Shown here: piece by piece, positions 11,755-64,000 of the stretch
Layout: each line of letters starts with the position of its first letter
How positions within the stretch are numbered: position 1 is the stretch's first letter
NCBI GenBank assembly: GCA_965200785.1
Contig: CBDAVA010000003.1
Span: forward strand, 1,978,241-2,042,240
Direction of reading: 5' to 3'
From: Alphaproteobacteria bacterium
Lineage (GTDB): Bacteria > Pseudomonadota > Alphaproteobacteria > Bin95
Length of the DNA: 64,000 nt
The notes under the pieces: generated by a model
The model's database searches: none
Told to the model about the DNA's origin: nothing
Seen by the model: only the letters and a program-made list of their open reading frames with translations
Translations under genes and position numbers: made by a program

Positions 11755-12378
11755 GCGCATTGCGAGGCTTTGAGGGGGAAAGGCCGCGCCCCGGCTCAAG
11801 CGCCGCGCCGGGTCTCCGGCTTCGCCGGAGGGGCGCGGGGAGGCCGGCGGGCGGCGGCGCCGGGCCCGGCAGCCGGGGCGGGCCGGCCTTGCGGGCGCGC
11901 GAAGCCCGGGGCGCGGGCCTCGCAGGACAGACTCATCCCCCCGGTTCCGAGGGGTCGAAAAAACGGACGGTGCGCGCGCAGACCGTTCGCTTCTTCTTCC
12001 TGGTGCCCATGCCCCAGCCCGCCCGGAATGGTCCGGAGCCGGAGGCAGGGAGGCCCATGAGGTTACGTGTCGCCCTCCAGACTGGGTGGACCGAGCCGTC
12101 AGGTACCGACAGCCCTGCCCATGGACCTGAAACAGCGGAGGGCCTGTCTGCCCCCGCCGTGATAGTGGTGACCATGTGGGTCTGAAGAGAACATAACACG
12201 AAAACCCTGTTTTGCAACCCTCCGGCGGAAATTTTTCTTCCGCCGGCTCTCAAGGAGTGCAATCCGATCGTCTGTCACGCGGCCGCTTAGGCGCACCCGC
12301 GCGCGGGATGCGTCCGGCTCATAAGGACATGGAAAAGCCTGTTTATGCCGATGCCGCCGCCGGTTTCCTCAACGCGAA

Positions 12379-12404
12379 ATGCCCCCGTCCAAAGACGGGG
12401 GCAT
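12379..12404. terminator. perfect 11-bp stem / 4-nt loop hairpin (ATGCCCCCGTC caaa GACGGGGGCAT) followed by ATATTTG
   Basis: This is read directly from the sequence. It could be a factor-independent terminator for a + strand transcript in the mfd-cas9 spacer, or, on the - strand, the 3' end of an RNA starting near 12500. Confidence 0.5.
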
Positions 12405-12470
12405 ATTTGCCGGCGGATGACCTTGGGATGCCGAGCCCGCACGAAGGGTCGATTTGCTGAGAAAAGGAAA

Positions 12471-12496
12471 CCGGCCGCTTCTCGATTTGCTATGCT
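12471..12496 (+). ncRNA. tracrRNA: tracrRNA anti-repeat (core of the type II-C tracrRNA gene)
   Basis: CCGGCCGCTTCTCGATTTGCTATGCT is the near-perfect reverse complement of CRISPR repeat positions 1-25 (AGTGTAGCAAATCGAGAAGCGGCCG). Antiparallel pairing gives 25 contiguous base pairs with 2 G:U wobbles. The block ends only 45 bp before the cas9 ATG. Confidence 0.65.
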
Positions 12497-12540
12497 TCCA
12501 TATCTAGCACCATAGTCATTCCTGCACAAGGAACTTCTGA

Positions 12541-13072
12541 ATGCCGCTCATCTTCGGCCTCGATATCGGAACGACATCTATTGGCTTCGCGGTCATCGAC
12601 CACGATAGCGTTTCGAGGACCGGTGCAATTCGGCGCATGGGCGTGCGTATCTTCCCCGAAGCGCGCAACTCGAAGGGCGTGCCTCTGAACCAGGAGCGGC
12701 GGGCGGCACGCATGAGACGCAGACAACTGCGCCGGCGCCGGCAACGCCGCCGCCGCCTTGGGGACATTCTCTTTGAAGCCGGCCTGCTCCCGGCGCGCGA
12801 CTCCAGCGCCTGGCAGCGGCTGATGAAGGAAACCGACCCCTACGATCTACGCCGGCGCGCGGCCGAAGGCGAGGCGCTGCCGCCGCATGATCTGGGCCGG
12901 GCGCTCTACCATCTGGCGCAGCGTCGGCATTTCAAAGGGCGGGATATCGATGAGGTTTCCGACGACACTGTGCAGGACCGGGAAGACGCTGATGAGAAGA
13001 AAGCGCAGACTGCCCGGGACCGAACAAGGGAGAGACTGAAGGAAGACGGGGGAACGCTTGGTTCCTGGCTAG
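12541..13072 (+). pseudogene. cas9: cas9 (type II-C), N-terminal fragment up to the IS insertion point
   Basis: The N-terminus MPLIFGLDIGTTSIGFAVID is the RuvC-I motif. It is followed by the arginine-rich bridge helix RRAARMRRRQLRRRRQRRRRL. The ORF then runs into the IS inverted repeat at 13073 and terminates within IS sequence. Confidence 0.85.
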
Positions 13073-14712
13073 CCCGGATTTCTCACAATGTTGAGTGCAT
13101 CGGGGTTCTGCATATGAGAAAGTTCTTTTGCGACAAAGGCTTGATCATATGCAGAGGGGTTCCCCGATGCCGGCAGAGTGTAGTCTGGGAGCGATGCGTT
13201 TTGCACGCCTTAAAGGGCGCGAGGTTGTAGCTGATTTTGGCGGTGGTGTGCTGACGTCGAACACCGGCGCGTTGCTGCTGGGGGCGACGGACCGGGCGAT
13301 CGGTCTGGTGGACCGGTTTGCGGCGTGCTTTTCGGATGGCCGCACTGCGGATCGTGTTGTGCACGATGTTGCGACCCTGGTGGGCCAGCGCGTGTTTGCC
13401 ATTGCGCTGGGCTACGAGGACCTGCTGGATCACGACGAGTTGCGCCACGATCCGGCGCTGGGTGTGGCGCTTGGCCGGCTTGAGGGGCGTCGTCGGGACT
13501 GTGCGCCGCTGGCCGGCAAATCGACGCTGAACCGTCTGGAGCACGCGCCCGAGGGCGCGCATCGCTATCGCCGCATCGGCCACGACGCCGGCGCGATTGA
13601 GGCGTTGTTCGTCGATCAGTTTCTCGACGCCCATGAGCAGGCGCCGGCGCGTCTGGTGCTTGATCTGGACGCCACTGACGACCCGCTGCACGGGCGTCAG
13701 GAGGGGCGGTTCTTCCACGGTTACTACGATTGCTACTGCTATCTGCCGCTCTACATTTTCTGCGGCGACCATCTCCTGGCGGCAAAGCTGCGGCGGGCGA
13801 ATAGTGACGCCAGCGCCGGCGCGCTGGAGGAGGTGGCGCGTATTGTCGGGCAGATCCGCGCCCGCTGGCCGGCAGTGGAGATCGTGCTGCGCGCAGATTC
13901 GGGCTTCGCCCGCGAGGCCCTGATGGCGTGGTGCGAGGACAATGGCGTCGATTATGTCTTCGGTCTGGCGCGCAATGCGCGCCTGACGGCCCGCCTGCAC
14001 CCGGCCCTGGAGCGGGCCGGGGCGCGCTGGCGCAAGAGCGGCCAGCCGGCCCGCCTGTTCACCGAGTTCCGCTATCGCACCCTGAACAGTTGGTCGCGCC
14101 AGCGCCGTGTCGTCGGCAAAGCCGAGTGGCTCCCGGGTGGTGCCAACCCGCGCTTCCTCGTCACCTCGCTGAACCCGACCACCATCGACCGGCGGACCCT
14201 CTACGAAAAACTCTACTGCGCCAGAGGCGACATGGAGAACCGCATCAAGGAATGCCAGCTCGACCTCTTCGCCGACCGCAGCTCGGCCCACACCATGCGC
14301 GCCAACCAACTCCGCCTCTGGTTCGCCTCCATGGCCTATGTGCTGCTCTCGGCACTCAGACGCATCGCCCTCGCCGGAACCCGCCTCGCCAAAGCCACAT
14401 GCCGATCCATACGCCTCAAGCTCCTCAAGATCGGCGCACAGATGCGCCTCAGTACACGCCGCATCCGCTTCGCCATGGCCGCCGCCTGCCCCCACGCCGA
14501 CGTCTTCACCCTCGCACACCAGCGATTATCCACCTGACCCCAGAGCAAGGGGACCAACCGAACCCGCCCGACAACAACACAGACACAAGACCCCAAATCA
14601 CACCGCGCCAACAGCGCAAGCACCCCCCCTGCGCGCCCCAACACGGACAACACCGCTATGCCAGACAAAACCCCCAACTCACTACACAAATGCAGCCCGT
14701 GAGAAATCCGGG
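13073..14712 (+). mobile_element. IS1380-family insertion sequence, copy 1, inserted in cas9
   Basis: The element is 1640 bp with 14-bp terminal inverted repeats (CCCGGATTTCTCAC / GTGAGAAATCCGGG). It is flanked by a 4-bp direct duplication CTAG (13069-13072 and 14713-14716). It carries a single 480-aa DDE transposase ORF. A second near-identical copy starts at 62826. Confidence 0.8.
13095..14537 (+). CDS. IS1380-family (IS4-like DDE) transposase
   Basis: GTG start. Motifs: LDLDATDDPLHGRQEGRFFHGYYDCYCYLPLY (DDE region with YGxQEG...YxPL typical of IS1380/IS4-like enzymes) and C-terminal RGDMENRIKECQL. The 480-aa length fits IS1380. Confidence 0.75.
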   Translation: MHRGSAYEKVLLRQRLDHMQRGSPMPAECSLGAMRFARLKGREVVADFGGGVLTSNTGALLLGATDRAIGLVDRFAACFSDGRTADRVVHDVATLVGQRVFAIALGYEDLLDHDELRHDPALGVALGRLEGRRRDCAPLAGKSTLNRLEHAPEGAHRYRRIGHDAGAIEALFVDQFLDAHEQAPARLVLDLDATDDPLHGRQEGRFFHGYYDCYCYLPLYIFCGDHLLAAKLRRANSDASAGALEEVARIVGQIRARWPAVEIVLRADSGFAREALMAWCEDNGVDYVFGLARNARLTARLHPALERAGARWRKSGQPARLFTEFRYRTLNSWSRQRRVVGKAEWLPGGANPRFLVTSLNPTTIDRRTLYEKLYCARGDMENRIKECQLDLFADRSSAHTMRANQLRLWFASMAYVLLSALRRIALAGTRLAKATCRSIRLKLLKIGAQMRLSTRRIRFAMAAACPHADVFTLAHQRLST

Positions 14713-14716
14713 CTAG

Positions 14717-17301
14717 CGAAACGCAGCCCGCATGAGCGCAAACGCGGCGAACATGCGACCCGCAAGATTGTTGAGGACGAATTCGACCATATCTGGCAGA
14801 TGCAGCAAGAGCATCTGCCCATTCTGAACAATACGGGTTTGAGGGGCGCCGTCCATGAAGCTGTTTTCGCTCAACGGCCTATATTCTGGCGCAAGAAGAC
14901 GCTTGGCACATGTCGCTTCGTTCCTGGCGCGGAGCTATGCCCCCGAGGCTCCTGGCTTTCTCAGCAGAAGCGAATGCTGGAGAAGGTCAACAATCTGGAG
15001 ATCGCAGGCGGAAACGCTCGCCCCCTAGACAGTGAGGAGCGCAAGGCAATCCTCGAGCGGTTGCAAGCGCAGTCGTCGATGACTTGGGCCGGTGTGCGCC
15101 GGGCACTCGCGCCGCTTTTCAAGGCGCGCAGCGAACCGGGGGCAGAAAGGCGTCTCAAGTTCAACCTCGAAATGGGCGGTGACAAGAGTCTGCCTGGCAA
15201 TTCCATCGAGAAGAAATTGAAGGACATTTTCGCCAAGGCGTGGGACAACCATCCGCACAAACAGGCAATCCGCGACACCGTTCCTGGCCGGTTATGGCAG
15301 GCCGACTACCGAGAAATTGGCGACCGGGTTATCATTCGGCCTGCCGCGGACCGCACAAGACAGCGTGATGCAGCCGCCCGGGATTTCATGCACGACTTTG
15401 GCGCAACGCAGGAGCAGGCCCACCAACTGGCAAAGCTCAAGGTGCCGACGGGCTGGGAGCCGTTCTCGATAGACGCCTTGCGGGCTTTCCTGCCCCGGTT
15501 GGAGGAAAGCGTGCGTTTCGGCGCACTCCTGAACGGCTCCGAATGGGAAGGCTGGCGCAACGAGACATTCCCCAACCGGGAGCGCCCAACCGGTGAGGTT
15601 CGGGACCGGCTGCCCAGCCCGGCTGACATTGAGGAACAGAAACGTATTGCAGCCCTGCGCAACCCGACCGTGGCGCGTGCCCGCAACGAACTGCGAAAGG
15701 TCGTCAACAACCTGATCGACATGTTCGGGAAGCCGGATCTGATCCGGGTAGAACTGGCACGAGAAGTCGGGCGGTCGAAACGCGACAGGGAAGAATATCA
15801 TGCCGCGATTCGTCGACAGGAAAGGCGGCGCAAAAAAGCAACGCAACACCTTATGGACAACGGCATTGCTGACCCATCCCGCACCGACATCGAGAAATGG
15901 CTGCTCTGGCAGGAGTGCGGGATGCAGTGCCCATACACAGGCGACCACATTTGTTTCGATGCCTTGTTCGGTGTCAATCCGGCCTTCGAGATAGAGCATA
16001 TCTGGCCGCGGCACCGCTCTCTGGACAACAGTTTCCGTAACAAGACGCTCTGCCGGCGGGATGAGAACCGGAAGAAGGCGGACAGGACGCCATATGAATA
16101 TCTGGGCTGGAAAGCAGACCGCTGGTCGGCTGTTCTGGATCGGCTCGAACGAATGATGAAGGCCGGCATGTCGCCAGGAAAGGTCAAGCGATTCAAGGCG
16201 AACAGCATTCCCGATGACTTCGCGGCGCGCCAGCTTAACGATACCGGGTACGCAGCACGGGAAGTCGTTTCATTCCTGAAGCGGCTGTGGCCGGATATAG
16301 GCCCCCAGGCACCGGTTACCGTGCAAGCGGTTTCCGGGCGCGTAACAGGGCATCTCCGCCGCCTCTGGGGCCTCAACCGGATTTTGGACGGTGACGGCAG
16401 GAAGTCCCGCGACGACCACCGCCACCATGCTGTTGATGCGCTTGTTGTGGCATGCACTCACCCCGGCATGACAAACCAGCTCTCGCGATATTGGCAGTCT
16501 ATGGAAACAGGCGCGGAACGACCAGAGCTGCCACGGCCATGGGCGTTGATCCGGGCTGACGCCGAAAGGGAGGTTTCGAGTATCGTGGTATCCCACCGCG
16601 TTCGCAGAAAACTCTCCGGGCCGCTTCACAAGGACACAATTTACGGCGATACTGGCGAGGAAGAGATCGGCAGGAGAGGATCAACATACAGGTTCTTCGT
16701 CACCCGTGAGAAAGTCGAGGAATTGAGTAAAACGAAACTGGAAGAGGAGATCCGGGACGACGCCGTTCGAGATATTGTCAAGGCTTGGGTCAGCAAGCAT
16801 GGCGGGGAGCCCAAGAAGGCGTTTCCGCCATATCCATTGCGAGGACCCAAAGGCCCGGAAATCCGCAGGGTTCGCCTGCGAAAGAAGCAGCAGATCGGTT
16901 TGATGGCTAAGGCTTCGACCGGATATGCCGATCTGGGTAACAACCACCACATCGCTGTCTATCAGCTACCGAACGGTGCAGTCGAGTATGAAGTCGTCAG
17001 TCTGCTAGAAGCATCACAACGCCTGGCGCGGAGAGAACCAGTGGTGCGACGCGAACGCGGGGACGGTGTGCGATTCATAATGTCGTTGTCTCCGGGCGAC
17101 ACCATTGAATTCAGCCATAACGGCGAGACGAAGGCGCGGGTGGTCGAGAGTGTGTGGTCAAGTGGACCAATCGTGATTGTCGATCACGAGGATGCAACCG
17201 GCAAATCTCGCTTCCGCCCCGGCGCGAAAGCGATAGTATCGAGCGGCGGGAGGAAGGTTTCCGTCGATCCCGTCGGCCGCATCCGGCCTGCAAACGACTG
17301 A
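14717..17301 (+). pseudogene. cas9: cas9 (type II-C), C-terminal fragment after the IS insertion
   Basis: The frame continues KRSPHERKRGEHATRKIVEDEFDHIWQ..., which aligns with the Nme-type REC lobe. An HNH domain (CPYTGDHICF...EIEHIWPRHRSLDNSFRNKTLC) and RuvC-III (RDDHRHHAVDALVV) follow. The two fragments together total about 1039 aa, and removing the IS plus one TSD rejoins them in frame. Confidence 0.85.
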
Positions 17302-17313
17302 CCTGCGCCGGCA

Positions 17314-18249
17314 ATGCTCCGCAAGACCGTCGAGTTTTCCACGCCCGGCACCCGGCTTTCCGTTTCGCTTCGCCAGCTTGTCGTGGAACGGCCTAACCTG
17401 CCGAAGGCAACACTGCCGATTGAAGACCTCGGTGTGCTTATTGTGGACGACACGCGCGCCACCTATACGCAATCGGTGTTCCTGGAGCTATTGCAGGCGG
17501 GCGCCACGGTGCTGGTCACCGGGCGCGATCACCTGCCTGCCGGAATGATGCTGCCGCTCGATGCCCATCATGTGCAAACAGAGCGGCACCGCGCCCAGGT
17601 CGCCGCCAGCGAGCCGGTCCGCAAGCAGGCGTGGCAAGCCATTGTGCGCGCCAAAATCGACCAGCAGGCCGCAGTTCTGTCTCATTTTACGGGCAGTCAT
17701 GGCGGGCTGGCGCCAATGGCACGCCGTGTGCGCTCGGGTGATCCCGACAATCTCGAAGCCCAGGCAGCGCAGCGTTACTGGCCCCGCCTATTTTGGAAGG
17801 ACTTTCGCCGCGACCGGAGCGCCGAGGGTGTGAACGCCCTGCTGAACTACGGCTACGCCGTAGTGCGGGCGGCGGTGGCGCGTGCTATTGTCGCCGCCGG
17901 CCTGATCCCGTCGCTGGGCGTTCACCACAGGCATCGAAACAATCCGTTTTGCCTCGCCGATGATCTACTGGAGCCGTACCGGCCTTATGTCGATTGGCGG
18001 GTCCGCCATCTCGCCGGCAACAGCGGGGATACGGTTCCGGGGCTTTCGTTGCGGGAAACCCGCGCGGCACTCCTCTCCTTGCTCAACGAGACAGTGTGCG
18101 TCGGCAGGCGCAGGGAGCCGCTGCTTCTCGCGCTGCACACCAGCGCAGCATCGCTTTGCCGGGCGTTGACCGGTGGCGAGCGGACCTTGTCTCTGCCCGC
18201 TGGTCTTCCGGTCGAGCCGGACTTGGTTGATGCCGCAGAAGTCGGTTAG
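17314..18249 (+). CDS. cas1: CRISPR integrase Cas1 (type II)
   Basis: It is 311 aa and lies 13 bp after the cas9 stop. The metal-binding residues of the Cas1 fold are present (ALLNYGYAV..., HHRHRNNPFCLADDLLEPYRP). Confidence 0.85.
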   Translation: MLRKTVEFSTPGTRLSVSLRQLVVERPNLPKATLPIEDLGVLIVDDTRATYTQSVFLELLQAGATVLVTGRDHLPAGMMLPLDAHHVQTERHRAQVAASEPVRKQAWQAIVRAKIDQQAAVLSHFTGSHGGLAPMARRVRSGDPDNLEAQAAQRYWPRLFWKDFRRDRSAEGVNALLNYGYAVVRAAVARAIVAAGLIPSLGVHHRHRNNPFCLADDLLEPYRPYVDWRVRHLAGNSGDTVPGLSLRETRAALLSLLNETVCVGRRREPLLLALHTSAASLCRALTGGERTLSLPAGLPVEPDLVDAAEVG

Positions 18250-18310
18250 CGCCTCGGCAGTGGTCCCTGGAGGGGGAGGCGCAAAGACATTTCCTTGGGG
18301 ATGGCGTTCC

Positions 18311-18616
18311 ATGTGGGTTATCGCCATGTTCGACCTTCCGACGGACACGCCGAAGGCGCGCAAGGCCTATGCCCGGTTCCGCAAGGACCTGCTGACAGAC
18401 GGTTTCTCGATGATGCAGTATTCCGTCTATATTCGACACTGCGCCTCTGTCGAAAATGCCAAGGTGCATGTCAACCGCATGGGACACTGTGTCCCGCCCG
18501 CAGGGGAGGTGCGCTTCCTGACGATCACCGACAGGCAGTTCGGCCGCATAGAGGTTCATGCCGGGAAAACCCGCAAAACGCCGCCGGATCCGCCCGCCCA
18601 GCTTGAGTTTTTCTGA
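18311..18616 (+). CDS. cas2: CRISPR adaptation protein Cas2 (type II)
   Basis: MFDLPTDTPKARKAYARFRKDLLTDGFSMMQYSVY...PPAGEVRFLTITDRQF closely resembles the S. pyogenes-type Cas2. The ATG at 18311 gives a 102-aa protein; the upstream part of track ORF 18173 is out-of-context extension. Confidence 0.8.
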   Translation: MWVIAMFDLPTDTPKARKAYARFRKDLLTDGFSMMQYSVYIRHCASVENAKVHVNRMGHCVPPAGEVRFLTITDRQFGRIEVHAGKTRKTPPDPPAQLEFF

Positions 18617-18666
18617 TAGCCGGGCGGGCTAAAACGGCCTGTTTTCAATGCCCTATGGTGAGGGCA
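18617..18666 (+). promoter_or_regulatory. putative CRISPR leader (50 bp between cas2 stop and first repeat)
   Basis: The location fits a leader. The repeats lack an obvious embedded -10 box, unlike Neisseria-type II-C repeats, so a leader promoter is expected. Which end of the array carries the leader was not established from sequence alone. Confidence 0.3.
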
Positions 18667-20022
18667 AGTGTAGCAAATCGAGAAGCGGCCGCAATCCGCA
18701 GCCGGAACACTCGCTCGACCTTCGTGCCGGCGAGTGTAGCAAATCGAGAAGCGGCCGCAATCCGCAGCCTTCTTAGGCGCGAGCAGATGCGAGATAACAG
18801 TGTAGCAAATCGAGAAGCGGCCGCAATCCGCAGCCGCGCTCTATACGCCTTCGCCTCGGAATACAGTGTAGCAAATCGAGAAGCGGCCGCAATCCGCAGC
18901 TACGCCGTGGCGCTGCTGATGGTCGCCGGCAGTGTAGCAAATCGAGAAGCGGCCGCAATCCGCAGCTATGTGACCTCCTACACATGCAGCTACACGAGTG
19001 TAGCAAATCGAGAAGCGGCCGCAATCCGCAGCCATGAAACCCAATCATCTGTATCACTATTCAGTGTAGCAAATCGAGAAGCGGCCGCAATCCGCAGCGG
19101 CGGCGCGTAAGGGACGAGGAGGCAGCCGAGTGTAGCAAATCGAGAAGCGGCCGCAATCCGCAGCGCTCGATGGTTGGTCTGGTCGAAGCCGACGAAGTGT
19201 AGCAAATCGAGAAGCGGCCGCAATCCGCAGCCAGCAGCGATATGAACAACTCGAAGGCTAAGTGTAGCAAATCGAGAAGCGGCCGCAATCCGCAGCCGGC
19301 TTCGGGATGCAGGCGTGGATACCGCGAGTGTAGCAAATCGAGAAGCGGCCGCAATCCGCAGCGCGCTTCAGGCGTGGCACACGTTCTGCGCTAGTGTAGC
19401 AAATCGAGAAGCGGCCGCAATCCGCAGCATGCTGCCCGCCAGCCGTCGGATGAATGCCAGTGTAGCAAATCGAGAAGCGGCCGCAATCCGCAGCGCGTCC
19501 GGCCCGTTGTGTTCCGTCCATCCGAGTGTAGCAAATCGAGAAGCGGCCGCAATCCGCAGCAAGCAGGGTGTGACTTACGGTGTGAAGGTTAGTGTAGCAA
19601 ATCGAGAAGCGGCCGCAATCCGCAGCTATCAGCCCATCGCCTACCGCATCGCTGAGAGTGTAGCAAATCGAGAAGCGGCCGCAATCCGCAGCCTGAGCAC
19701 AGTCATAACAGTTGTTATGTTAAGTGTAGCAAATCGAGAAGCGGCCGCAATCCGCAGCAAGCAGGGTGTGACTTACGGTGTGAAGGTTAGTGTAGCAAAT
19801 CGAGAAGCGGCCGCAATCCGCAGCTATCAGCCCATCGCCTACCGCATCGCTGAGAGTGTAGCAAATCGAGAAGCGGCCGCAATCCGCAGCGATATCGTCC
19901 ATGTAGTTGATAAGCGGGTTAGTATAGCCGCTTGGAGACCGGGGGCCAGCCGCAACCCGGGCTTCTGCGCGGGGAGGTCGCGGCATAGTATAGCCGCTTG
20001 GAGACCGAGGCTAGCCGCAACT
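18667..20022 (+). CRISPR. type II-C CRISPR array: 19 canonical 36-bp repeats plus 2 degenerate terminal repeats, 30-bp spacers, period 66 bp
   Basis: The repeat AGTGTAGCAAATCGAGAAGCGGCCGCAATCCGCAGC begins at 18667 and recurs every 66 bp through 19855. Units at 19921 and 19987 (AGTATAGCCGCTTGGAGACCG...GCCGCAAC) keep the 66-bp register but match the consensus at only 22 of 36 positions. There are 20 spacers in total. Spacers 14-15 (19561-19590, 19627-19656) are duplicated exactly as spacers 17-18 (19759-19788, 19825-19854). Confidence 0.95.
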
Positions 20023-20177
20023 CCTGTTTTCCTACCCCCCTCTGATCCACCACCTGCGCAGGATGCGGTCGAGCAGCAGTTGGCGGATGCTGGGCGCATG
20101 ACGCCTGTGCCGGCAGTGGAACGCCGGCGCGCCGTTTCGACTCGCCCGGCCCGGTCAATCCAGGCGGCGGCGGCTGG

Positions 20178-36826: not shown

Positions 36827-36993
36827 CGTTCCGGACCCTGTCTCTTCTGCCGTCTGCCGGAATCGGACTGTAGGCGAATGGCCGGCCCGGTTCAAGGTCG
36901 GGCGGCCCGGCCGGGGCGGCGAAAAGGGGCGCCCGGAGATACCAGCCAATATCCAGATGGTGTCTCGGTTCAACATTTGGGCTCGCTGCGGCG

Positions 36994-37028
36994 TTCATCC
37001 GTCACCCCGGTTCATCCGTCACCCCCGG
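36994..37028. repeat. tandem direct repeat GTTCATCCGTCACCCC(C)G x2 in a divergent intergenic region
   Basis: Seen directly in the sequence, upstream of the TAXI-TRAP substrate-binding gene. Confidence 0.6.
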
Positions 37029-37223
37029 AGGCGGGGGTAACAGGAGAGAGCGGGGCCCCCTTGCAGGCACTGTCCTTGCCTGCCGCCCGCGGCACGGTTG
37101 CAGCAACCGCCTGCGGCCAGGAAGCCGAATGTGAAACCGAGACACGACCAATATTCAACGGTGCTTGTGGAAACGGCCGGGAAGCGACAAGATAGGCTGA
37201 GGAGTGACAAGGGAGGAACTTCC

Positions 37224-54077: not shown

Positions 54078-54491
54078 ATGGAAATCTGGATTACGCCGGC
54101 GCTGGTCGTGGCGCTGGCGGCTCTCATGATCGGCATGATCCGCTCGCTGCGCGGCGATCTGGAAAGGCGCATCGACGGCGTGGACAAGCGCATCGACGAG
54201 GTGCGCAGCGATCTGGGCAAGCGCATCGACAGTGTGGACAAACGGATCGACGGCGTGGACAAGCGTATCGACGAGGTGCGCAGCGACTTGGGCAAACGCA
54301 TCGATGAGGTGCGCAGCGATCTGGGCAAGCGTATCGACAGGGTTGAATACCGGATGGACCGCCTGGAGACCGGCCTGGTCGAGGTGAAGGAAGGGTTGGC
54401 CGAAGTGCGGGGCGAACTCGGGTTCGTCCGCGACTACATCCTGCACCGCAACATGCCGGCGGAGAGGCCGCCGGCCGCACCGGCGGAATAG
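54078..54491 (+). CDS. membrane-anchored coiled-coil repeat protein, paralog 1 (137 aa)
   Basis: It has an N-terminal TM helix (MEIWITPALVVALAALMIGMI), then 7-mer and 11-mer repeats (DKRIDGV / DLGKRIDEVRS), then a conserved tail RVEYRMDRLETGLVEVKEGLAEVRGELGFVRDYILHRNMPAERPPAAPAE. A GAAGG RBS is present. Differences among the four copies are mainly synonymous. Confidence 0.65.
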   Translation: MEIWITPALVVALAALMIGMIRSLRGDLERRIDGVDKRIDEVRSDLGKRIDSVDKRIDGVDKRIDEVRSDLGKRIDEVRSDLGKRIDRVEYRMDRLETGLVEVKEGLAEVRGELGFVRDYILHRNMPAERPPAAPAE

Positions 54492-54712
54492 GCGGCTGCC
54501 GCAAGGGCCGCGCTCAAGAGCGGCGTTTCCCGCCCGTTCCCGCGCCCGGCTTCCGGCCGCATTGCCGTCAAGGTCATCAACCATCTGGGCGACGAGGCGA
54601 TGACAGTGTTTCGGGTATAGGCAGCGGATCGCGGAGGCCGCGGTTGCGGACGGAGCGCTGTCACGCTATCCATTATGCACCGGTGGTTTCCGGGCGGTAG
54701 AAGGCCTGACGG

Positions 54713-55051
54713 ATGGAAATCTGGATTACGCCGGCGCTGATTGTGGCGCTGGCGGCTCTCATGATCGGGATGATCCGCTCGCTGCGCAGCGATCTGGACA
54801 AGCGTATCGACGAGGTGCGCAGCGACCTGGGCAAGCGCATCGACGGTGTGGACAAACGCATCGATGAGGTGCGCAGCGATCTGGGCAAGCGTATCGACAG
54901 GGTCGAATACCGGATGGACCGCTTGGAGACCGGCCTGGTCGAGGTGAAGGAAGGCTTGGCCGAAGTGCGGGGCGAACTCGGGTTCGTCCGCGACTACATC
55001 CTGCACCGCAACATGCCGGCGGAGAGGCCGCCGGCCGCACCGGCGGAATAG
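54713..55051 (+). CDS. membrane-anchored coiled-coil repeat protein, paralog 2 (112 aa)
   Basis: Same architecture with fewer internal repeats (3 units) and an identical C-terminal 57 aa. Confidence 0.65.
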   Translation: MEIWITPALIVALAALMIGMIRSLRSDLDKRIDEVRSDLGKRIDGVDKRIDEVRSDLGKRIDRVEYRMDRLETGLVEVKEGLAEVRGELGFVRDYILHRNMPAERPPAAPAE

Positions 55052-55272
55052 GCGGCTGCCGCAAGGGCCGCGCTCAAGAGCGGCGTTTCCCGCCCGTTCC
55101 CGCGCCCGGCTTCCGGCCGCATTGCCGTCAAGGTCGTTAACCATCTGGGCGACGAGGCGATGACAGTGTTTCGGGTGTAGGCAGCGGGTCGCGGGGGCCG
55201 CGGTTGCGGGCGGAGCGCTGTCGCGCTATCCATTATTCACTGGCTGCTGACGGGCGGTAGAAGGCCTGACGG

Positions 55273-55623
55273 ATGGAAATCTGGATTACGCCGGCGCTGA
55301 TCGTGGCGCTGGCGGCTCTCATGATCGGCATGATCCGGTCGCTGCGCAGCGACCTGGACAAGCGTATCGACGAGGTGCGCAGCGACTTGGGCAAGCGCAT
55401 CGATGAGGTGCGCAGCGATCTGGGCAAGCGCATCGATGAGGTGCGCAGCGATCTGGGCAAGCGCATCGACAGGGTGGAATACCGGATGGACCGCCTGGAG
55501 ACCGGCCTGGTCGAGGTGAAGGAAGGCTTGGCCGAAGTGCGGGGCGAACTCGGGTTCGTCCGCGACTACATCCTGCACCGCAACATGCCGGCGGAGAGGC
55601 CGCCGGCCGCGCCGGCGGAATAG
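55273..55623 (+). CDS. membrane-anchored coiled-coil repeat protein, paralog 3 (116 aa)
   Basis: Same architecture, with three consecutive DLGKRIDEVRS 11-mers. Confidence 0.65.
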   Translation: MEIWITPALIVALAALMIGMIRSLRSDLDKRIDEVRSDLGKRIDEVRSDLGKRIDEVRSDLGKRIDRVEYRMDRLETGLVEVKEGLAEVRGELGFVRDYILHRNMPAERPPAAPAE

Positions 55624-55844
55624 GCGGCTGCCGCAAGGGCCGCGCTCAAGAGCGGCGTTTCCCGCCCGTTCCCGCGCCCGGTTTCCGGCCGCATCGCCGT
55701 CAAGGTCATCAACCATCTGGGCGACGAGGCGATGACAGTGTTTCGGGTATAGGCAGCGGATCGCGGGGGTCGTGGTTGCGGGCGGAGCACCGTCGCGCTA
55801 TCCATCATTCACTGGCAGCTGACGGGCGGTAGAAGGCCTGACGG

Positions 55845-56300
55845 ATGGAAATCTGGATTACGCCGGCGCTGATCGTGGCGCTGGCGGCTCTCATGATCGG
55901 GATGATCCGCTCGCTGCGCGGCGATCTGGAGAGGCGTATCGACGGCGTGGACAAGCGCATCGATGGTGTGGACAAACGCATCGACGAGGTGCGCAGCGAC
56001 TTGGGCAAGCGCATCGACAGTGTGGACAAACGCATCGACGGTGTGGACAAGCGTATCGACGAGGTGCGCAGCGACTTGGGCAAGCGTATCGACAGTGTGG
56101 ACAGACGCATCGATGAGGTGCGCAGCGATCTGGGCAAGCGTATCGACAGGGTCGAACACCGGATGGACCGCCTGGAGACCGGCTTGGTCGAGGTGAAGGA
56201 AGGCTTGGCCGAAGTGCGGGGCGAACTCGGGTTCGTCCGCGATTACATCCTGCACCGCAACATGCCGGCGGAGAGGCCGCCGGCCGCACCGGCGGAATAA
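55845..56300 (+). CDS. membrane-anchored coiled-coil repeat protein, paralog 4 (151 aa)
   Basis: Same architecture with the most repeat units. It has a Y-to-H change in the tail (RVEHRM) and a different downstream hairpin (GCTGCCGCC ggg GCGGCGGCAG). Confidence 0.65.
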   Translation: MEIWITPALIVALAALMIGMIRSLRGDLERRIDGVDKRIDGVDKRIDEVRSDLGKRIDSVDKRIDGVDKRIDEVRSDLGKRIDSVDRRIDEVRSDLGKRIDRVEHRMDRLETGLVEVKEGLAEVRGELGFVRDYILHRNMPAERPPAAPAE

Positions 56301-60739: not shown

Positions 60740-62797
60740 TTACGGATCGCGGGCGGAGCCGCCGCCCGTGAGGATTTTCGGGCGGAAGGGGTAGAGCGCG
60801 CCGTCGGAGCCGATGCCGGGAATCGGGCGCACCGGCGCGCCGTCATGCGCGGCCTCCATGAAGTCGCGCCAGATGCGGGCGGGCAGGCTGCCGCCTGTGA
60901 CCTCCTCCATCGGCGCGCCGTCGTCATTGCCGACCCACACGCCGGCGACCAGATTGCCGGTAAAGCCGACAAAGAGGGCGTCGCGGAAGGACTGGCTGGT
61001 GCCGGTCTTGCCTGCCGAGGCGCGGTCCTGCAGGCGGGCGGCCTTGCCGGTGCCCTGCCTGACGACGGCGGCCAGCATATCGTTCATGGACGCCACGACG
61101 CCGGGGGCCACAGCTTCGCCGGCGCCGGTGCCGGACCGCTCGAACACGCCTTCGATCCTGTTGACGCCATAGGGAATGACGCCGATGCCGCCATTCGCGA
61201 AGGCGGCGTAGGCGCCGGTTAACTCGATCAGCCGCACCGCGCTGGAGCCGAGCGCAATGGTGAGGTCGGGCGCGAGGTCGGATGTGATCCCGAGACGCCG
61301 TGCCGCCTCGGCGACCCGCGCCCGCCCGGCGCGGTCGGCAAGCCGCACCGCGGCGGCGTTCAGGGATTGCGCAAAGGCGTCCCGCATCGTGACCGAGCCG
61401 TGGAAGCGGCCGTCGAAATTATCCGGCGACCATCCGCCTATCGTGACGCGCCTGTCCGATACCGTGTCGTCCGGGCGCAAGCCCCGCTCCAGCGCCGCCA
61501 GATAAACAAACGGCTTGAAGGCCGAACCCGGCTGACGGAGAGCCTGTGTCGCGCGGTTGAACTGGCTGGCGCCGTAGTCCCTGCCGCCGATCATGGCCCG
61601 CACGGCGCCGTCGGGAGACATGGCAATGAGCGCCGCCTGGGCCGGGTTCCCGATGTCGGCGAGCGCGGCAGCAACAGTTTCCGCCGCGAGTCTCTGCAGG
61701 CCCGGATCGAAGGTTGTCGCGATACGCAGGTCCCGGTCCACCGATCCCATGCGCCGATGCACCTGCGCGAGCGCCCAGTCGGCGAAATAGCCGCGCCCGT
61801 CCGGCTCCGTCCTGGTCTGCAAGGTGGATGCCGCCGCCGCTTCGGCTTCTTGGGCGGAGATGAAACCGACCTCCGCCATTGCCTCCAGCACCAGCCGCCC
61901 CCGCTCGCCGGCGCCGGCCGGGTTGGCCACCGGAGACAGCCGGCTCGGCGCCTTCAACAACCCGGCCAGCACTGCGGCTTCCCAAAGATCGACCTCCGCG
62001 GCCGGTTTGGAAAAGAAGCGCCGCGCAGCCGCATCAACACCATAGGCGCCGGAGCCGAAATAGACGCGGTTGAGGTAGAGCGACAGGATATGATTCTTGT
62101 CGTAACGCCATTCCAACCAGAATGCGAGCAAGGCCTCGCGAATCTTCCGCTCGACCGATCGTTCCGGCGTCAGGAAAAGGTTCTTGGCGAGCTGCTGGGT
62201 AATCGTGCTGCCGCCCTGGCGCAGCCCTCCCTCGACGACATTGACCCAAAGGGCGCGAACCAGGCTGATCAGGTCGATACCATCATGGTCGTAGAAGCGC
62301 CGGTCCTCGATCGCGATGACTGCGCGGGGAAGATGAGGGGGAAGCGTTGCCGCATTCACCGGGTCGCCATACAGGTCGCCCTTCGCCAGCACCGGATTGT
62401 TGTCAACATCGTTGAGAAAGATGCCCGGACGCCGCCCGCTTTCCGCCACCCGGTCGATATCGGGCAATGTGTAGGAAAAATAGGCCAGCGCCCCGATAAC
62501 GGCGATCAGGGCCCAGACGCAGACGACTGCCAGGCCGAGCAGGCAGCGCCGCAGGAAAGACCGCCGCGCGCCGGCTGCGGAGGCAGACCGCTTCCGCTTG
62601 GGGGCCGGGCGCCCGGCCTTCCGCGCCGGCGGTGTCTTTGGGGGGGCTTTCTTTTGAAGTTTTCGCTCAGGCGAACGCCGTGCTTGCGAGGCCGGTTCCG
62701 GCTTGCCGGCTGCGCCGGCGCGCAGCCGCGGCATGCCCCGCCGCCGTCCGGCGGCCCCGCCGCCCCGTTTTTCGCCTCCGCGCGCCATCGCCGTCAT
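60740..62797 (-). CDS. class A penicillin-binding protein (PBP1A family; glycosyltransferase + transpeptidase)
   Basis: GT51 motifs (EDRRFYDHDGID, GGSTITQQLAKN, RKIREA) and a transpeptidase domain (SxxK, KTGT). It has a basic Ala/Lys/Arg/Pro-rich N-terminal extension; the true start is probably MPRLRAG or later. Confidence 0.8.
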   Translation of the reverse strand: MTAMARGGEKRGGGAAGRRRGMPRLRAGAAGKPEPASQARRSPERKLQKKAPPKTPPARKAGRPAPKRKRSASAAGARRSFLRRCLLGLAVVCVWALIAVIGALAYFSYTLPDIDRVAESGRRPGIFLNDVDNNPVLAKGDLYGDPVNAATLPPHLPRAVIAIEDRRFYDHDGIDLISLVRALWVNVVEGGLRQGGSTITQQLAKNLFLTPERSVERKIREALLAFWLEWRYDKNHILSLYLNRVYFGSGAYGVDAAARRFFSKPAAEVDLWEAAVLAGLLKAPSRLSPVANPAGAGERGRLVLEAMAEVGFISAQEAEAAAASTLQTRTEPDGRGYFADWALAQVHRRMGSVDRDLRIATTFDPGLQRLAAETVAAALADIGNPAQAALIAMSPDGAVRAMIGGRDYGASQFNRATQALRQPGSAFKPFVYLAALERGLRPDDTVSDRRVTIGGWSPDNFDGRFHGSVTMRDAFAQSLNAAAVRLADRAGRARVAEAARRLGITSDLAPDLTIALGSSAVRLIELTGAYAAFANGGIGVIPYGVNRIEGVFERSGTGAGEAVAPGVVASMNDMLAAVVRQGTGKAARLQDRASAGKTGTSQSFRDALFVGFTGNLVAGVWVGNDDGAPMEEVTGGSLPARIWRDFMEAAHDGAPVRPIPGIGSDGALYPFRPKILTGGGSARDP

Positions 62798-62825: not shown

Positions 62826-64000
62826 CCCGGATTTCTCACAATGTTGAGTGCATCGGGGTTCTGCATATGAGAAAGTTCTTTTGCGACAAAGGCTTGATCA
62901 TATGCAGAGGGGTTCCCCGATGCCGGCAGAGTGTAGTCTGGGAGCGATGCGTTTTGCACGCCTTAAAGGGCGCGAGGTTGTAGCTGATTTTGGCGGTGGT
63001 GTGCTGACGTCGAACACCGGCGCGTTGCTGCTGGGGGCGACGGACCGGGCGATCGGTCTGGTGGACCGGTTTGCGGCGTGCTTTTCGGATGGCCGCACTG
63101 CGGATCGTGTTGTGCACGATGTTGCGACCCTGGTGGGCCAGCGCGTGTTTGCCATTGCGCTGGGCTACGAGGACCTGCTGGATCACGACGAGTTGCGCCA
63201 CGATCCGGCGCTGGGTGTGGCGCTTGGCCGGCTTGAGGGGCGCCGTCGGGACTGTGCGCCGCTGGCCGGCAAATCGACGCTGAACCGTCTGGAGCACGCG
63301 CCCGAGGGCGCGCATCGCTATCGCCGCATCGGCCACGACGCCGGCGCGATTGAGGCGTTGTTCGTCGATCAGTTTCTCGACGCTCATGAGCAGGCGCCGG
63401 CGCGTCTGGTGCTTGATCTGGACGCCACTGACGACCCGCTGCACGGGCGTCAGGAGGGGCGGTTCTTCCACGGTTACTACGATTGCTACTGCTATCTGCC
63501 GCTCTACATTTTCTGCGGCGACCATCTCCTGGCGGCAAAGCTGCGGCGGGCGAATAGTGACGCCAGCGCCGGCGCGCTGGAGGAGGTGGCGCGTATTGTC
63601 GGGCAGATCCGCGCCCGCTGGCCGGCAGTGGAGATCGTGCTGCGCGCAGATTCGGGCTTCGCCCGCGAGGCCCTGATGGCGTGGTGCGAGGACAATGGCG
63701 TCGATTATGTCTTCGGTCTGGCACGCAACGCGCGCCTGACGGCCCGCCTGCACCCGGCCCTGGAGCGGGCCGGGGCGCGCTGGCGCAAGAGCGGCCAGCC
63801 GGCCCGCCTGTTCACCGAGTTCCGCTATCGCACCCTGAAGACATGGTCGCGCCAGCGCCGTGTCGTCGGCAAAGCCGAGTGGCTCCCGGGCGGCGCCAAC
63901 CCGCGCTTCCTCGTCACCTCGCTGAACCCGACCACCATCGACCGGCGGACCCTCTACGAAAAACTCTACTGCGCCAGAGGCGACATGGAGAACCGCATCA
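62826..64000 (+). mobile_element. IS1380-family insertion sequence, copy 2 (truncated by window end)
   Basis: It is more than 99% identical to 13073-14247. The same left inverted repeat CCCGGATTTCTCAC is preceded by CTAG (62822-62825). Only a few substitutions relative to copy 1 were seen. Confidence 0.8.
62848..64000 (+). CDS. IS1380-family transposase (5' portion, runs off window)
   Basis: The same GTG-initiated ORF as 13095-14537 (MHRGSAYEKVLL...). It is not listed in the ORF track because no stop lies within the window. Confidence 0.7.
   Translation, partial: MHRGSAYEKVLLRQRLDHMQRGSPMPAECSLGAMRFARLKGREVVADFGGGVLTSNTGALLLGATDRAIGLVDRFAACFSDGRTADRVVHDVATLVGQRVFAIALGYEDLLDHDELRHDPALGVALGRLEGRRRDCAPLAGKSTLNRLEHAPEGAHRYRRIGHDAGAIEALFVDQFLDAHEQAPARLVLDLDATDDPLHGRQEGRFFHGYYDCYCYLPLYIFCGDHLLAAKLRRANSDASAGALEEVARIVGQIRARWPAVEIVLRADSGFAREALMAWCEDNGVDYVFGLARNARLTARLHPALERAGARWRKSGQPARLFTEFRYRTLKTWSRQRRVVGKAEWLPGGANPRFLVTSLNPTTIDRRTLYEKLYCARGDMENRI

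What the first reader, a model, noticed from the sequence alone, without database searches (positions are those of the whole stretch)
12541..17301. cas9 split by a recent, precisely excisable IS1380-family insertion
The type II-C cas9 reading frame runs from 12541 into the IS left inverted repeat at 13073 and resumes in the same frame at 14717. The IS (1640 bp) plus one copy of the CTAG target-site duplication is 1644 bp, a multiple of 3. In-silico removal gives ...GTLGSWLA|KRSPHERKRGEHATRK..., a continuous REC-lobe sequence homologous to Nme-type Cas9. RuvC-I, HNH and RuvC-III motifs are all intact, so the insertion looks recent and is probably the only lesion. IS inactivation of the effector while cas1, cas2 and the array are retained is the pattern expected if a self-targeting spacer made Cas9 toxic.
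Basis: partly seen in the sequence, partly recalled or inferred. Interest (0 to 1): 0.65.

Follow-up and report, generated by a model that had tools for sequence, protein, structure and literature searches.

The report
Jumping gene splits a cas9 gene
A bacterial CRISPR immune gene (cas9) has been cut in two by one clean insertion of a multi-copy mobile element; this is real and looks recent, but it is a well-documented way for bacteria to lose CRISPR immunity.

Summary
A 1,640-bp IS1380-family insertion sequence (13073-14712) sits in a type II-C cas9. It has perfect 14-bp inverted repeats and an intact 456-aa transposase gene, and CTAG lies on both sides. Removing the IS and one CTAG gives a 1,038-aa reading frame with no stops. 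That frame lines up without a gap with about 1,040-aa orthologs across the junction. All catalytic residues are present, and the protein shows no more loss of conserved residues than intact homologs do. The candidate tracrRNA, cas1, cas2 and a 21-repeat array are intact. The right junction recurs in an independent read-set assembly.

The IS is in expansion: at least 8 transposase variants occur on the source chromosome and a second copy lies at 62826. It always lands in CTAG. CTAG is about ten-fold depleted in this genome but 4.6-fold enriched in the lower-GC CRISPR-cas island.

The self-targeting idea has no support here. No spacer matches the window, phages, plasmids or IMG/VR, and the host genome could not be searched. 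"Precisely excisable" is shown only in silico, and no empty site was found. IS hits in cas genes are already catalogued (163 natural cases, PMC10359306). This is an ordinary new example.

The parts
12377..12497 (-). Candidate tracrRNA. The anti-repeat is at about 12495-12456. A terminator-like hairpin is at 12404-12379, followed by a short T tail. The 5' end is not mapped.
   Evidence: A 21-bp perfect duplex with the CRISPR repeat, extended to -49.7 kcal/mol. The hairpin is visible. An anti-repeat lies at the same place upstream of cas9 in relatives L015 and L016. The strand is inferred from the terminator position and from the repeat's TGCTACACT box.
12541..13072 (+). cas9 5' fragment, codons 1-177 plus 1 nt. 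It carries RuvC-I (D8) and the arginine-rich bridge helix.
13069..13072 (.). Left copy of the CTAG target-site duplication.
13073..14712 (+). IS1380-family insertion sequence, 1,640 bp. IRL is 13073-13086 and IRR is 14699-14712 (14/14 bp).
13167..14537 (+). Transposase gene (456 aa, intact), in the same orientation as cas9.
   Evidence: PF13701 at 3e-150. NF033539 at 404 bits. The exact protein is in the public collection.
14713..14716 (.). Right copy of the CTAG target-site duplication.
   Evidence: Also present in the independent contig L003.
14717..17301 (+). cas9 3' fragment, residues 178-1038: REC lobe, RuvC-II, HNH, RuvC-III and the PAM-interacting C-terminus.
   Evidence: The public collection holds only a 775-aa piece starting at M264 (P0001).
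17314..18249 (+). cas1 (311 aa, type II/NMENI).
   Evidence: PF01867. TIGR03639 at 249 bits.
18311..18616 (+). cas2 (101 aa).
   Evidence: PF09827. TIGR01573.
18667..20022 (-). CRISPR array: 19 identical 36-nt repeats plus 2 diverged terminal repeats (19921-19956, 19987-20022), and 20 spacers of 29-31 nt (18 unique). The crRNA sense is inferred to be the minus strand.
   Evidence: Read on the minus strand, the repeat ends in TGCTACACT, like the TGCTACAAT end of the Neisseria meningitidis repeat. I recalled that N. meningitidis repeat from memory.
62826..64000 (+). Second copy of the same IS, cut by the window end. It is also preceded by CTAG and lies 28 bp upstream of a class A PBP gene.
   Evidence: 99.2% identity, 9 differences in 1,175 nt. 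PBP domains found.

Best explanation
**Shown**
- A single copy of a CTAG-specific, multi-copy IS1380-family insertion sequence transposed into the CTAG at codons 177-178 (CTA GCG) of an otherwise intact type II-C cas9, and duplicated the CTAG.
- Translation from the cas9 start now ends inside the IS after 178 Cas9 residues. RuvC-I and the bridge helix are therefore separated from the rest of the protein.

**Inferred**
- Interference is lost. By analogy with type II-A, Cas9-dependent spacer acquisition is probably lost as well.
- The event is evolutionarily recent, because nothing else in the locus has decayed.
- The proximate cause is an IS expansion in this genome combined with target availability. 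CTAG is strongly avoided in the chromosome but is common in the lower-GC, horizontally acquired CRISPR-cas island.

**Unresolved**
- Whether the mutant then spread by drift or hitch-hiking, or because losing Cas9 was advantageous.
For: **Anatomy and frame.**

**Family assignments.**

**Reconstruction**
- The reconstructed Cas9 is colinear with 12 orthologs of 64-70% identity.
- There is no gap at the junction, and W176 and L177 are invariant.
- D8, E523, H605, H747/H748 and D751 sit in invariant columns.
- Alignment to solved II-C Cas9s (9ar4, 6jdq) is consistent with this.

**No relaxed constraint**
- The reconstructed protein differs at 1 of 161 invariant columns and at 10 of 378 columns that are at least 95% conserved.
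- 40 and 26 of the 104 intact homologs, respectively, do as badly or worse.

**IS expansion**
- At least 8 transposase variants occur on the same 3.43-Mb contig, plus 3 on a 406-kb contig.
- A second copy lies in the window.
- A copy identical at 1,640 of 1,640 positions sits at a different site, L008.

**Strict CTAG target**
- Every IS end seen is flanked by CTAG.
- This includes relatives of about 71% nucleotide identity on Bradyrhizobium and Rhizobium plasmids.

**CTAG statistics**
- The window has 18 native sites where about 203 (base composition) or 54 (Markov) are expected.
- Six of them lie in the 6-kb cas island, which is 1.0 per kb against 0.22 per kb outside (P about 0.01).
- The island's GC content is 0.56-0.63, against 0.67-0.72 in the flanks.

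**Independent support.** The right junction was seen independently.
Against: - The left junction has no independent confirmation.
- "Recent" rests on absence of decay, not on a dated comparison, because no closely related intact allele exists in the databases (the best is 69-70% identical).
- If all CTAG sites were equally available, 8-20 insertions would hit cas9 with a probability of only about 2-6%. Chance alone is possible but not compelling, and selection cannot be dismissed.
- The Logan IS contigs may be consensus sequences over several copies, so the 100% identity of L008 is soft evidence.
- Loss of function is inferred from domain architecture and was not measured.
Confidence: 0.85

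Rival explanations
1. The insertion was positively selected because Cas9 had become harmful. The cause would be a spacer matching the host chromosome or a prophage (autoimmunity), or a spacer matching a beneficial resident replicon such as the 406-kb contig.
For: - Natural and experimental IS insertions into cas genes do rescue cells from CRISPR self-killing or allow plasmid retention (PMC10359306).
- The a-priori chance of a neutral hit in cas9 is only a few percent.
- A related II-C locus (L015) also carries an IS, of the ISKra4 family, at the 3' end of cas9. This shows that such hits recur.
Against: - None of the 18 unique spacers matches the 64-kb window outside the array, even with 7 mismatches.
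- None matches the other loci fetched.
- There are no meaningful hits in 50,697 phage or 72,556 plasmid records. The best is a 28-nt match at E 0.7.
- Six spacers tested have no exact 24-mer match in IMG/VR.
- Retained cas1, cas2 and array are expected after any single recent hit.
- About 98% of the host genome could not be searched, so this rival is untested rather than refuted.
Confidence: 0.25
2. The insertion is a reversible switch. The IS1380-family transposase is the prokaryotic relative of piggyBac. It would excise seamlessly at its 4-bp palindromic CTAG duplication, restore cas9, and let the population toggle immunity.
For: - Removing the IS plus one CTAG restores a perfect reading frame.
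- Strict 4-bp palindromic target, 4-bp duplication and CCC termini parallel piggyBac (TTAA|CCCTAGAAAG...).
- IS1380 transposases are used as the prokaryotic outgroup of piggyBac (PMC10813416).
- piggyBac's seamless excision is mechanistically tied to its tetranucleotide targeting (PMC7351741).
- The low-confidence model of the transposase hits Tn5 transposase (E 1e-6) and piggyBat transposase (E 0.02). Tn5 and piggyBac-type transposases form hairpins on the transposon ends.
- A MAG contig shows an IRR-CTAG-IRL junction, which is what ligated excised ends would give.
Against: - No empty-site allele was found anywhere.
- Logan contig L003 runs 24 nt into the IS without the break that a co-existing empty allele would cause.
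- The structure model is poor (mean pLDDT 58), and its best hit, Tn5, does not excise seamlessly.
- At least 11 diverged copies suggest accumulation of copies, not just movement.
- The IRR-CTAG-IRL junction is equally explained by a second insertion into the flanking CTAG, or by an assembly artefact.
- The transposition chemistry of this family is not established in anything I could read.
Confidence: 0.07
3. The interruption is an assembly artefact, with a multi-copy IS wrongly threaded through cas9.
For: - The IS is multi-copy, and the source looks like a metagenome or long-read assembly.
- A related 3x-coverage contig carries homopolymer errors.
Against: - The right junction is reproduced exactly in an independently assembled short-read contig reported from 3 samples.
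- A perfect 4-bp duplication of the element's own specific target at both junctions, and an exact multiple-of-three restoration, are not what mis-joins produce.
Confidence: 0.03

Closest known systems
Natural IS insertions into cas genes (Sheng et al. 2023, Nat Commun 14:4366, PMC10359306)
   Same: An IS transposes into a cas effector gene and inactivates an otherwise complete CRISPR-Cas locus. That survey found 163 natural cases, 20 IS families and 57 genera.
   Different: - "IS1380" does not occur in the main text of that paper. I did not check its supplementary tables.
- Here the IS has a strict tetranucleotide target. In their experiments IS1 and IS10 had relaxed target specificity.
- No matching resident plasmid or self-target was identified here.
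IS1380 family insertion sequences (IS1380 of Acetobacter, ISEcp1; NCBIfam NF033539, Pfam PF13701)
   Same: - The transposase matches the family equivalog model well above its cutoff.
- The element is about 1.64 kb, has short terminal inverted repeats starting with CC, and makes a 4-bp duplication.
- Its nearest named relatives are annotated IS1380 family transposases on Bradyrhizobium, Rhizobium and Acetobacter plasmids.
   Different: - It is only about 70-72% identical in nucleotide sequence to the nearest annotated plasmid copies.
- The strict CTAG target of this sub-clade is not described in any paper I could search. ISfinder could not be consulted.
Type II-C CRISPR-Cas (Neisseria meningitidis and Geobacillus Cas9; PDB 6jdq, 9ar4)
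   Same: - Gene order is cas9-cas1-cas2-array, with no fourth cas gene.
- Cas9 is about 1,040 aa and the repeats are 36 nt.
- The anti-repeat lies upstream of cas9.
- The repeat ends in an extended -10-like TGCTACACT on the strand opposite to the cas genes.
   Different: - Similarity to the solved II-C Cas9s is confined to two local stretches (query residues 5-308 and 488-790; phmmer E about 1e-65 to 1e-61).
- The protein belongs to a large uncharacterised clade seen mostly in metagenomes.
- The PAM is unknown.
- Promoter-in-repeat transcription is inferred from sequence only.
piggyBac transposon
   Same: A 4-bp palindromic target with a central TA, a 4-bp duplication of it, and CCC at the transposon tips. 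The transposase families are regarded as related.
   Different: - The target is CTAG, not TTAA.
- No sequence-level hit to any solved piggyBac-type transposase, and only a weak fold hit.
- Seamless excision has not been shown for this element.

Membership tests
IS1380 family insertion sequence | Transposase matching the family model (NCBIfam NF033539 / Pfam PF13701 DDE_Tnp_1_4) | tested here: met
   NF033539 at 404.3 bits (cutoff 180), covering profile positions 2-419 of 419. PF13701 E-value 3e-150.
IS1380 family insertion sequence | Single-ORF element of about 1.5-2 kb bounded by short terminal inverted repeats | tested here: met
   1,640 bp, one 456-aa ORF, and 14/14-bp inverted repeats CCCGGATTTCTCAC.
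IS1380 family insertion sequence | Short (4-5 bp) target-site duplication on insertion | tested here: met
   CTAG lies on both sides at the cas9 site and at L006, L008, L017 and L018. The pre-insertion sequence TGG CTA GCG is implied by the invariant W176-L177 and by alanine or serine at position 178 in the orthologs.
IS1380 family insertion sequence | Demonstrated transposition activity | not testable with these tools
   Evidence is indirect only: at least 11 copies in the source assembly, and identical or near-identical copies at different sites.
Type II-C CRISPR-Cas | Cas9 with RuvC-I/II/III and HNH domains | tested here: met
   After reconstruction, TIGR01865 scores 609 bits over profile positions 2-1069 of 1070. 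Pfam RuvC_III, HNH_4 and Cas9_a match. Catalytic residues sit in invariant columns. As the gene stands in the window it is interrupted.
Type II-C CRISPR-Cas | Only cas1 and cas2 accompany cas9 (no csn2 as in II-A, no cas4 as in II-B) | tested here: met
   cas9, cas1 and cas2 are followed by the array 50 bp after cas2. tracrRNA and mfd lie upstream and a DsbA/SDR gene pair downstream.
Type II-C CRISPR-Cas | tracrRNA with an anti-repeat complementary to the CRISPR repeat | tested here: met
   A 21-bp perfect complementarity at 12492-12472, followed by a terminator-like hairpin, conserved in position in two relatives. Expression was not tested.
Type II-C CRISPR-Cas | Functional interference (crRNA-guided cleavage next to a PAM) | not testable with these tools
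   No protospacer was found, so no PAM could be derived. With cas9 split, function is expected to be absent.
piggyBac-like seamless cut-and-paste element | Excision that restores the single tetranucleotide target without a footprint | not testable with these tools
   Only the in-silico restoration is available. No empty site was observed.
piggyBac-like seamless cut-and-paste element | Transposase homologous to piggyBac transposase | tested here: inconclusive
   No sequence hit in the PDB. The low-confidence model (pLDDT 58) gives Tn5 at E 1e-6 and piggyBat at E 0.02, probability 0.87.

The most novel reading that the evidence does not exclude
This CTAG-specific IS1380-family element behaves as a bacterial counterpart of piggyBac. 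It would excise seamlessly by leaving complementary CTAG overhangs, so the cas9 interruption would be a reversible on/off state of CRISPR immunity rather than a dead end.
Probability: 0.07. Interest if true: 0.6.

Novelty: new member of a known kind. Interest (0 to 1): 0.2.

Why it matters
- **Annotation.** The locus should be recorded as one cas9 pseudogene split by an IS, not as a 775-aa Cas9 fragment. The system should be scored as inactive.
- **Recoverable enzyme.** The reconstructed 1,038-aa protein, with its candidate tracrRNA and repeat, is an apparently undamaged member of a large, uncharacterised alphaproteobacterial-type II-C Cas9 clade.
- **Biology.** The case shows how target specificity and base composition interact. 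A tetranucleotide that the host genome avoids is common in foreign, lower-GC DNA, which makes a defence island a preferred landing pad for a CTAG-specific IS.
- **Novelty.** None of this is new in kind.

Tried and rejected
**Searches for an intact (empty-site) allele**
- The protein search found only the 775-aa fragment at 100% identity. The next best hits are 69-70% identical.
- The empty-site 25-mer and a cas9 31-mer next to the site are both absent from JGI metagenomes.
- Exact look-ups of the N-terminal chimeric ORF and of Mfd found nothing.

**Source genome**
- My single genome-contig scan, with the IS end as the pattern, returned only an alphaproteobacterial MAG contig (L001).
- The source genome therefore does not appear to be among the representative genomes, and a whole-genome self-target search was impossible.

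**Spacer targets**
- The window at 7 or fewer mismatches.
- The fetched loci.
- Phages and plasmids by blastn.
- Six 24-mers against IMG/VR.
- All were negative, so no PAM could be derived.

**RNA searches**
- Rfam and tRNA scans of the window found nothing.
- The consensus promoter scan found nothing useful at the IS right end or upstream of cas9.

**Transposase structure**
- The model was poor (pLDDT 58), so I treat the fold matches as weak.

**Alternative IS boundary**
- I considered that CTAG might belong to the IS, making it 1,648 bp with no duplication.
- I rejected this because deleting 1,648 bp shifts the frame and removes the invariant L177 codon.

Full report
**1. The observation**

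- cas9 starts at 12541.
- At 13069-13072 the sequence reads CTAG, followed at 13073 by CCCGGATTTCTCAC.
- The reverse complement of that 14-mer ends at 14712 and is again followed by CTAG (14713-14716). The cas9 sequence then continues.
- The element is 1,640 bp. With one CTAG it is 1,644 bp, a multiple of three.
- In place, the cas9 frame runs 51 codons into the element and stops at 13230.
- With 13073-14716 removed, the frame is open for 3,117 nt (1,038 aa plus stop) and reads ...GTLGSWLA|KRSPHERKRGEHATRK across the join.

Two small corrections apply.

- The protein is 1,038 aa, not 1,039.
- The 20 spacers include two duplicated ones, so 18 are unique.

**2. What the parts are**

*The interrupted gene*

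- The reconstructed protein matches the Cas9 equivalog model TIGR01865 at 609 bits over essentially the whole profile.
- It also matches Pfam RuvC_III, HNH_4 and Cas9_a.
- 804 homologs were found. Apart from the source's own fragment, the best are about 1,040 aa long and 64-70% identical.
- In an alignment with 12 of them there is no gap at the join. W176 and L177 are invariant, and position 178 is alanine or serine.
- The catalytic D8, E523, H605, H747/H748 and D751 lie in invariant columns, and the C-terminus aligns to the last residue.
- The nearest solved structures are type II-C Cas9s (9ar4, 8jtj, Nme 6jdq). The alignment places the insertion site in the stretch that follows the arginine-rich helix.

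*The rest of the locus*

- Downstream are a type II cas1 (TIGR03639, 249 bits) and cas2.
- Fifty bp after cas2 there is an array of 19 identical 36-nt repeats plus two diverged terminal repeats.
- There is no csn2 or cas4, so the system is type II-C.
- Upstream of cas9, on the minus strand, a 21-nt perfect anti-repeat is followed by a strong hairpin and a short T tract. This is a plausible tracrRNA.
- The same arrangement is present in two relatives.
- Read on the minus strand, the repeat ends in TGCTACACT. This resembles the extended -10 box at the end of the Neisseria repeat, which I recalled from memory. The crRNAs are therefore probably transcribed from within the repeats, towards cas2. 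This is inferred, not shown.

*The insertion*

- Its 456-aa ORF (13167-14537) matches the IS1380-family transposase equivalog at 404 bits (cutoff 180) and PF13701 at 3e-150.
- Related copies of about 71% nucleotide identity, annotated "IS1380 family transposase", lie on Bradyrhizobium, Rhizobium and Acetobacter plasmids.

**3. Is the CTAG a real duplication, and is the reconstruction right?**

Because CTAG is a palindrome, it could in principle be part of the inverted repeats. Two results exclude this.

- Deleting 1,648 bp instead of 1,644 shifts the frame and removes the codon of the invariant L177. The orthologs show that TGG-CTA-GCG (W-L-A) pre-existed.
- Independent insertions have CTAG on both sides with unrelated outer flanks:
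  - L006 (GAACTAG|IS|CTAGCGGCG) and L008 (AGCCTAG|IS|CTAGCCGAAT);
  - the Bradyrhizobium relative L017 (1,657 bp) and the Rhizobium relative L018 (1,635 bp).
- The second copy in the window (62826) is also preceded by CTAG.
- Short Logan unitigs of the IS extend exactly into TAG/CTAG at both ends. This means that all copies in those samples share these flanks.

The element therefore targets CTAG and duplicates it. The exact choice of IS boundary within the palindrome does not change the reconstructed empty site.

**4. Is it real, and is it recent?**

- The right junction (24 nt of IS, CTAG, cas9) is reproduced base for base in Logan contig L003, assembled from a different read set and reported from three samples.
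- An ENA metagenome contig (L002) carries the same strain from 16702 onwards, with only two homopolymer differences.
- The left junction has no such confirmation.

Three results bear on age.

- The locus has no other lesion.
- In an alignment with 104 intact homologs, the reconstructed Cas9 departs from 1 of 161 invariant columns and from 10 of 378 columns that are at least 95% conserved. These values are matched or exceeded by 40 and 26 of the intact proteins, respectively, so there is no sign of relaxed constraint.
- The IS itself has perfect inverted repeats and an intact transposase gene. A copy identical at all 1,640 positions sits at another site (L008).

These results fit a recent event, but they do not date it. 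No closely related intact allele exists in the databases searched.

**5. Why cas9?**

The IS is in expansion.

- The exact-sequence cluster of the transposase holds at least eight variants, 1-4 aa apart, on the same 3.43-Mb contig, plus three on a 406-kb contig.
- The window's second copy corresponds to one of them.

The target, CTAG, is strongly avoided by this genome.

- There are 18 native sites in 61 kb, against about 203 expected from base composition or 54 from a Markov estimate.
- The avoidance does not extend to the CRISPR-cas island, which has a lower GC content (0.56-0.63 against 0.67-0.72).
- The island holds 6 of the 18 sites in 6 kb (1.0 per kb against 0.22 per kb outside; P about 0.01). 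cas9 alone holds three.
- If all sites were equally usable, 8-20 insertions would hit cas9 with a probability of about 2-6%. The probability would be higher if insertions in essential genes are removed by selection.

A neutral hit is therefore plausible, but not so likely that selection can be dismissed.

A self-targeting spacer, or by extension a spacer against a useful resident replicon, would have made Cas9 harmful. This mechanism is well established elsewhere (PMC10359306).

I found nothing for it here.

- No spacer matches the window outside the array, even at 7 mismatches.
- No spacer matches any fetched locus.
- No meaningful match exists in the phage or plasmid collections.
- Six spacers tested have no exact match in IMG/VR.

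About 98% of the host genome could not be searched, because the source does not appear to be among the representative genomes. The hypothesis is therefore untested rather than refuted.

By analogy with type II-A, the adaptation genes probably cannot work without Cas9 either. That point rests on established knowledge cited within PMC10359306 (Heler 2015; Wei 2015) and was not tested here.

**6. "Precisely excisable"**

As a statement about the sequence, this is true. As biology, it is open.

- *Lead.* IS1380 transposases are treated as the prokaryotic outgroup of piggyBac (PMC10813416).
- *Lead.* piggyBac's footprint-free excision follows from its 4-bp palindromic target (PMC7351741).
- *Lead.* This IS shares the formal features: a 4-bp palindromic target with a central TA, a 4-bp duplication, and CCC tips.
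- *Weakness.* There is no sequence hit to a solved piggyBac-type transposase.
- *Weakness.* The structure model is poor (pLDDT 58), and its best match is Tn5 transposase, with piggyBat a weak second.
- *Weakness.* No empty site was seen.
- *Weakness.* L003's extension 24 nt into the IS argues against a co-existing empty allele in that sample.
- *Weakness.* The IRR-CTAG-IRL junction in MAG contig L001 could be a circle junction. It could equally be a tandem re-insertion into the flanking CTAG, or an assembly artefact.

I give the reversible-switch reading about 7%.

**7. Comparison with what is known, and verdict**

- IS insertions in cas genes are a catalogued phenomenon: 163 natural cases, 20 IS families and 57 genera.
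- A related II-C locus fetched here (L015) itself carries an ISKra4-family transposase gene between cas9 and cas1, and its Cas9 has lost the last 34 or so conserved residues.
- The element passes every testable defining feature of the IS1380 family.
- The locus passes every testable defining feature of type II-C.
- The finding is a correct and careful observation of an ordinary event. It is a new member of a known kind.
- Its modest added value lies in two things: the apparently undamaged Cas9 that can be recovered, and the link between CTAG avoidance and the targeting of a defence island.
- Interest: 0.2.

Noticed in passing
window 19561-19656 and 19759-19854: Spacers 14 and 15 recur as spacers 17 and 18. 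This is a 198-bp internal duplication of three repeat-spacer units within the array (19525-19692 is identical to 19723-19890).
   Followed up: partly
window 19921-19956 and 19987-20022: The two cas-distal terminal repeats are a clearly different repeat type (AGTATAGCCGCTTGGAGACCG...GCCGCAAC, about 20 of 36 identical to the main repeat). They could be a decayed trailer end or the remnant of an older array.
   Followed up: no
L001 (MAG contig CBDBFH010000007.1), reverse strand positions 91-122: A head-to-tail IS junction: right inverted repeat, a single CTAG, then left inverted repeat. This could be a tandem insertion into the flanking CTAG, an excised-circle junction, or an assembly artefact.
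   Followed up: partly
L017 (Bradyrhizobium sp. CB82 plasmid) 497-2161; L018 (Rhizobium leguminosarum pRle248d) 497-2139: IS1380-family relatives of about 71% nucleotide identity are also bounded by CTAG on both sides. CTAG specificity is therefore a property of the whole sub-clade. I found no paper describing it.
   Followed up: partly
L015 6001-11038 (ENA ERZ25068685, 5.46-Mb contig): A related II-C locus (Cas9 P0008, 69% identical) has an ISKra4-family transposase gene (NF033572, 295 bits) between cas9 and cas1. Its Cas9 lacks the last 34 or so conserved residues. This looks like an independent IS hit on the same kind of locus.
   Followed up: partly
window 62826-64000: A second copy of the IS (9 differences in 1,175 nt) is inserted at a CTAG 28 bp upstream of the start of a class A penicillin-binding protein gene (60740-62797, minus strand). 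It may affect that gene's promoter.
   Followed up: partly
whole window; CRISPR-cas island 12377-20026: CTAG is about ten-fold under-represented in the window (18 native sites against about 203 expected from base composition). It is 4.6-fold denser in the lower-GC CRISPR-cas island than elsewhere.
   Followed up: yes
window 54148-56176: A cluster of paralogous small genes carries 33-nt and 21-nt periodic repeats that encode coiled-coil (...DKRIDEVRSDLGKRID...) proteins. One plus-strand ORF (55845-56300) matches DUF1664 and other coiled-coil families.
   Followed up: partly
window 14338-17301: An ATG-initiated ORF of 987 codons starts inside the IS, in the cas9 frame, and reads through the right end into cas9. 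Read-through from the IS could therefore give an N-terminally truncated Cas9 that lacks RuvC-I and the bridge helix. The public collection holds a 775-aa piece starting at M264.
   Followed up: no
window 36993-37149 and L001 1037-1160: A 124-nt stretch is 88.7% identical between the window and the alphaproteobacterial MAG contig, next to a 17-nt tandem duplication (36993-37025). Its nature is unknown.
   Followed up: no
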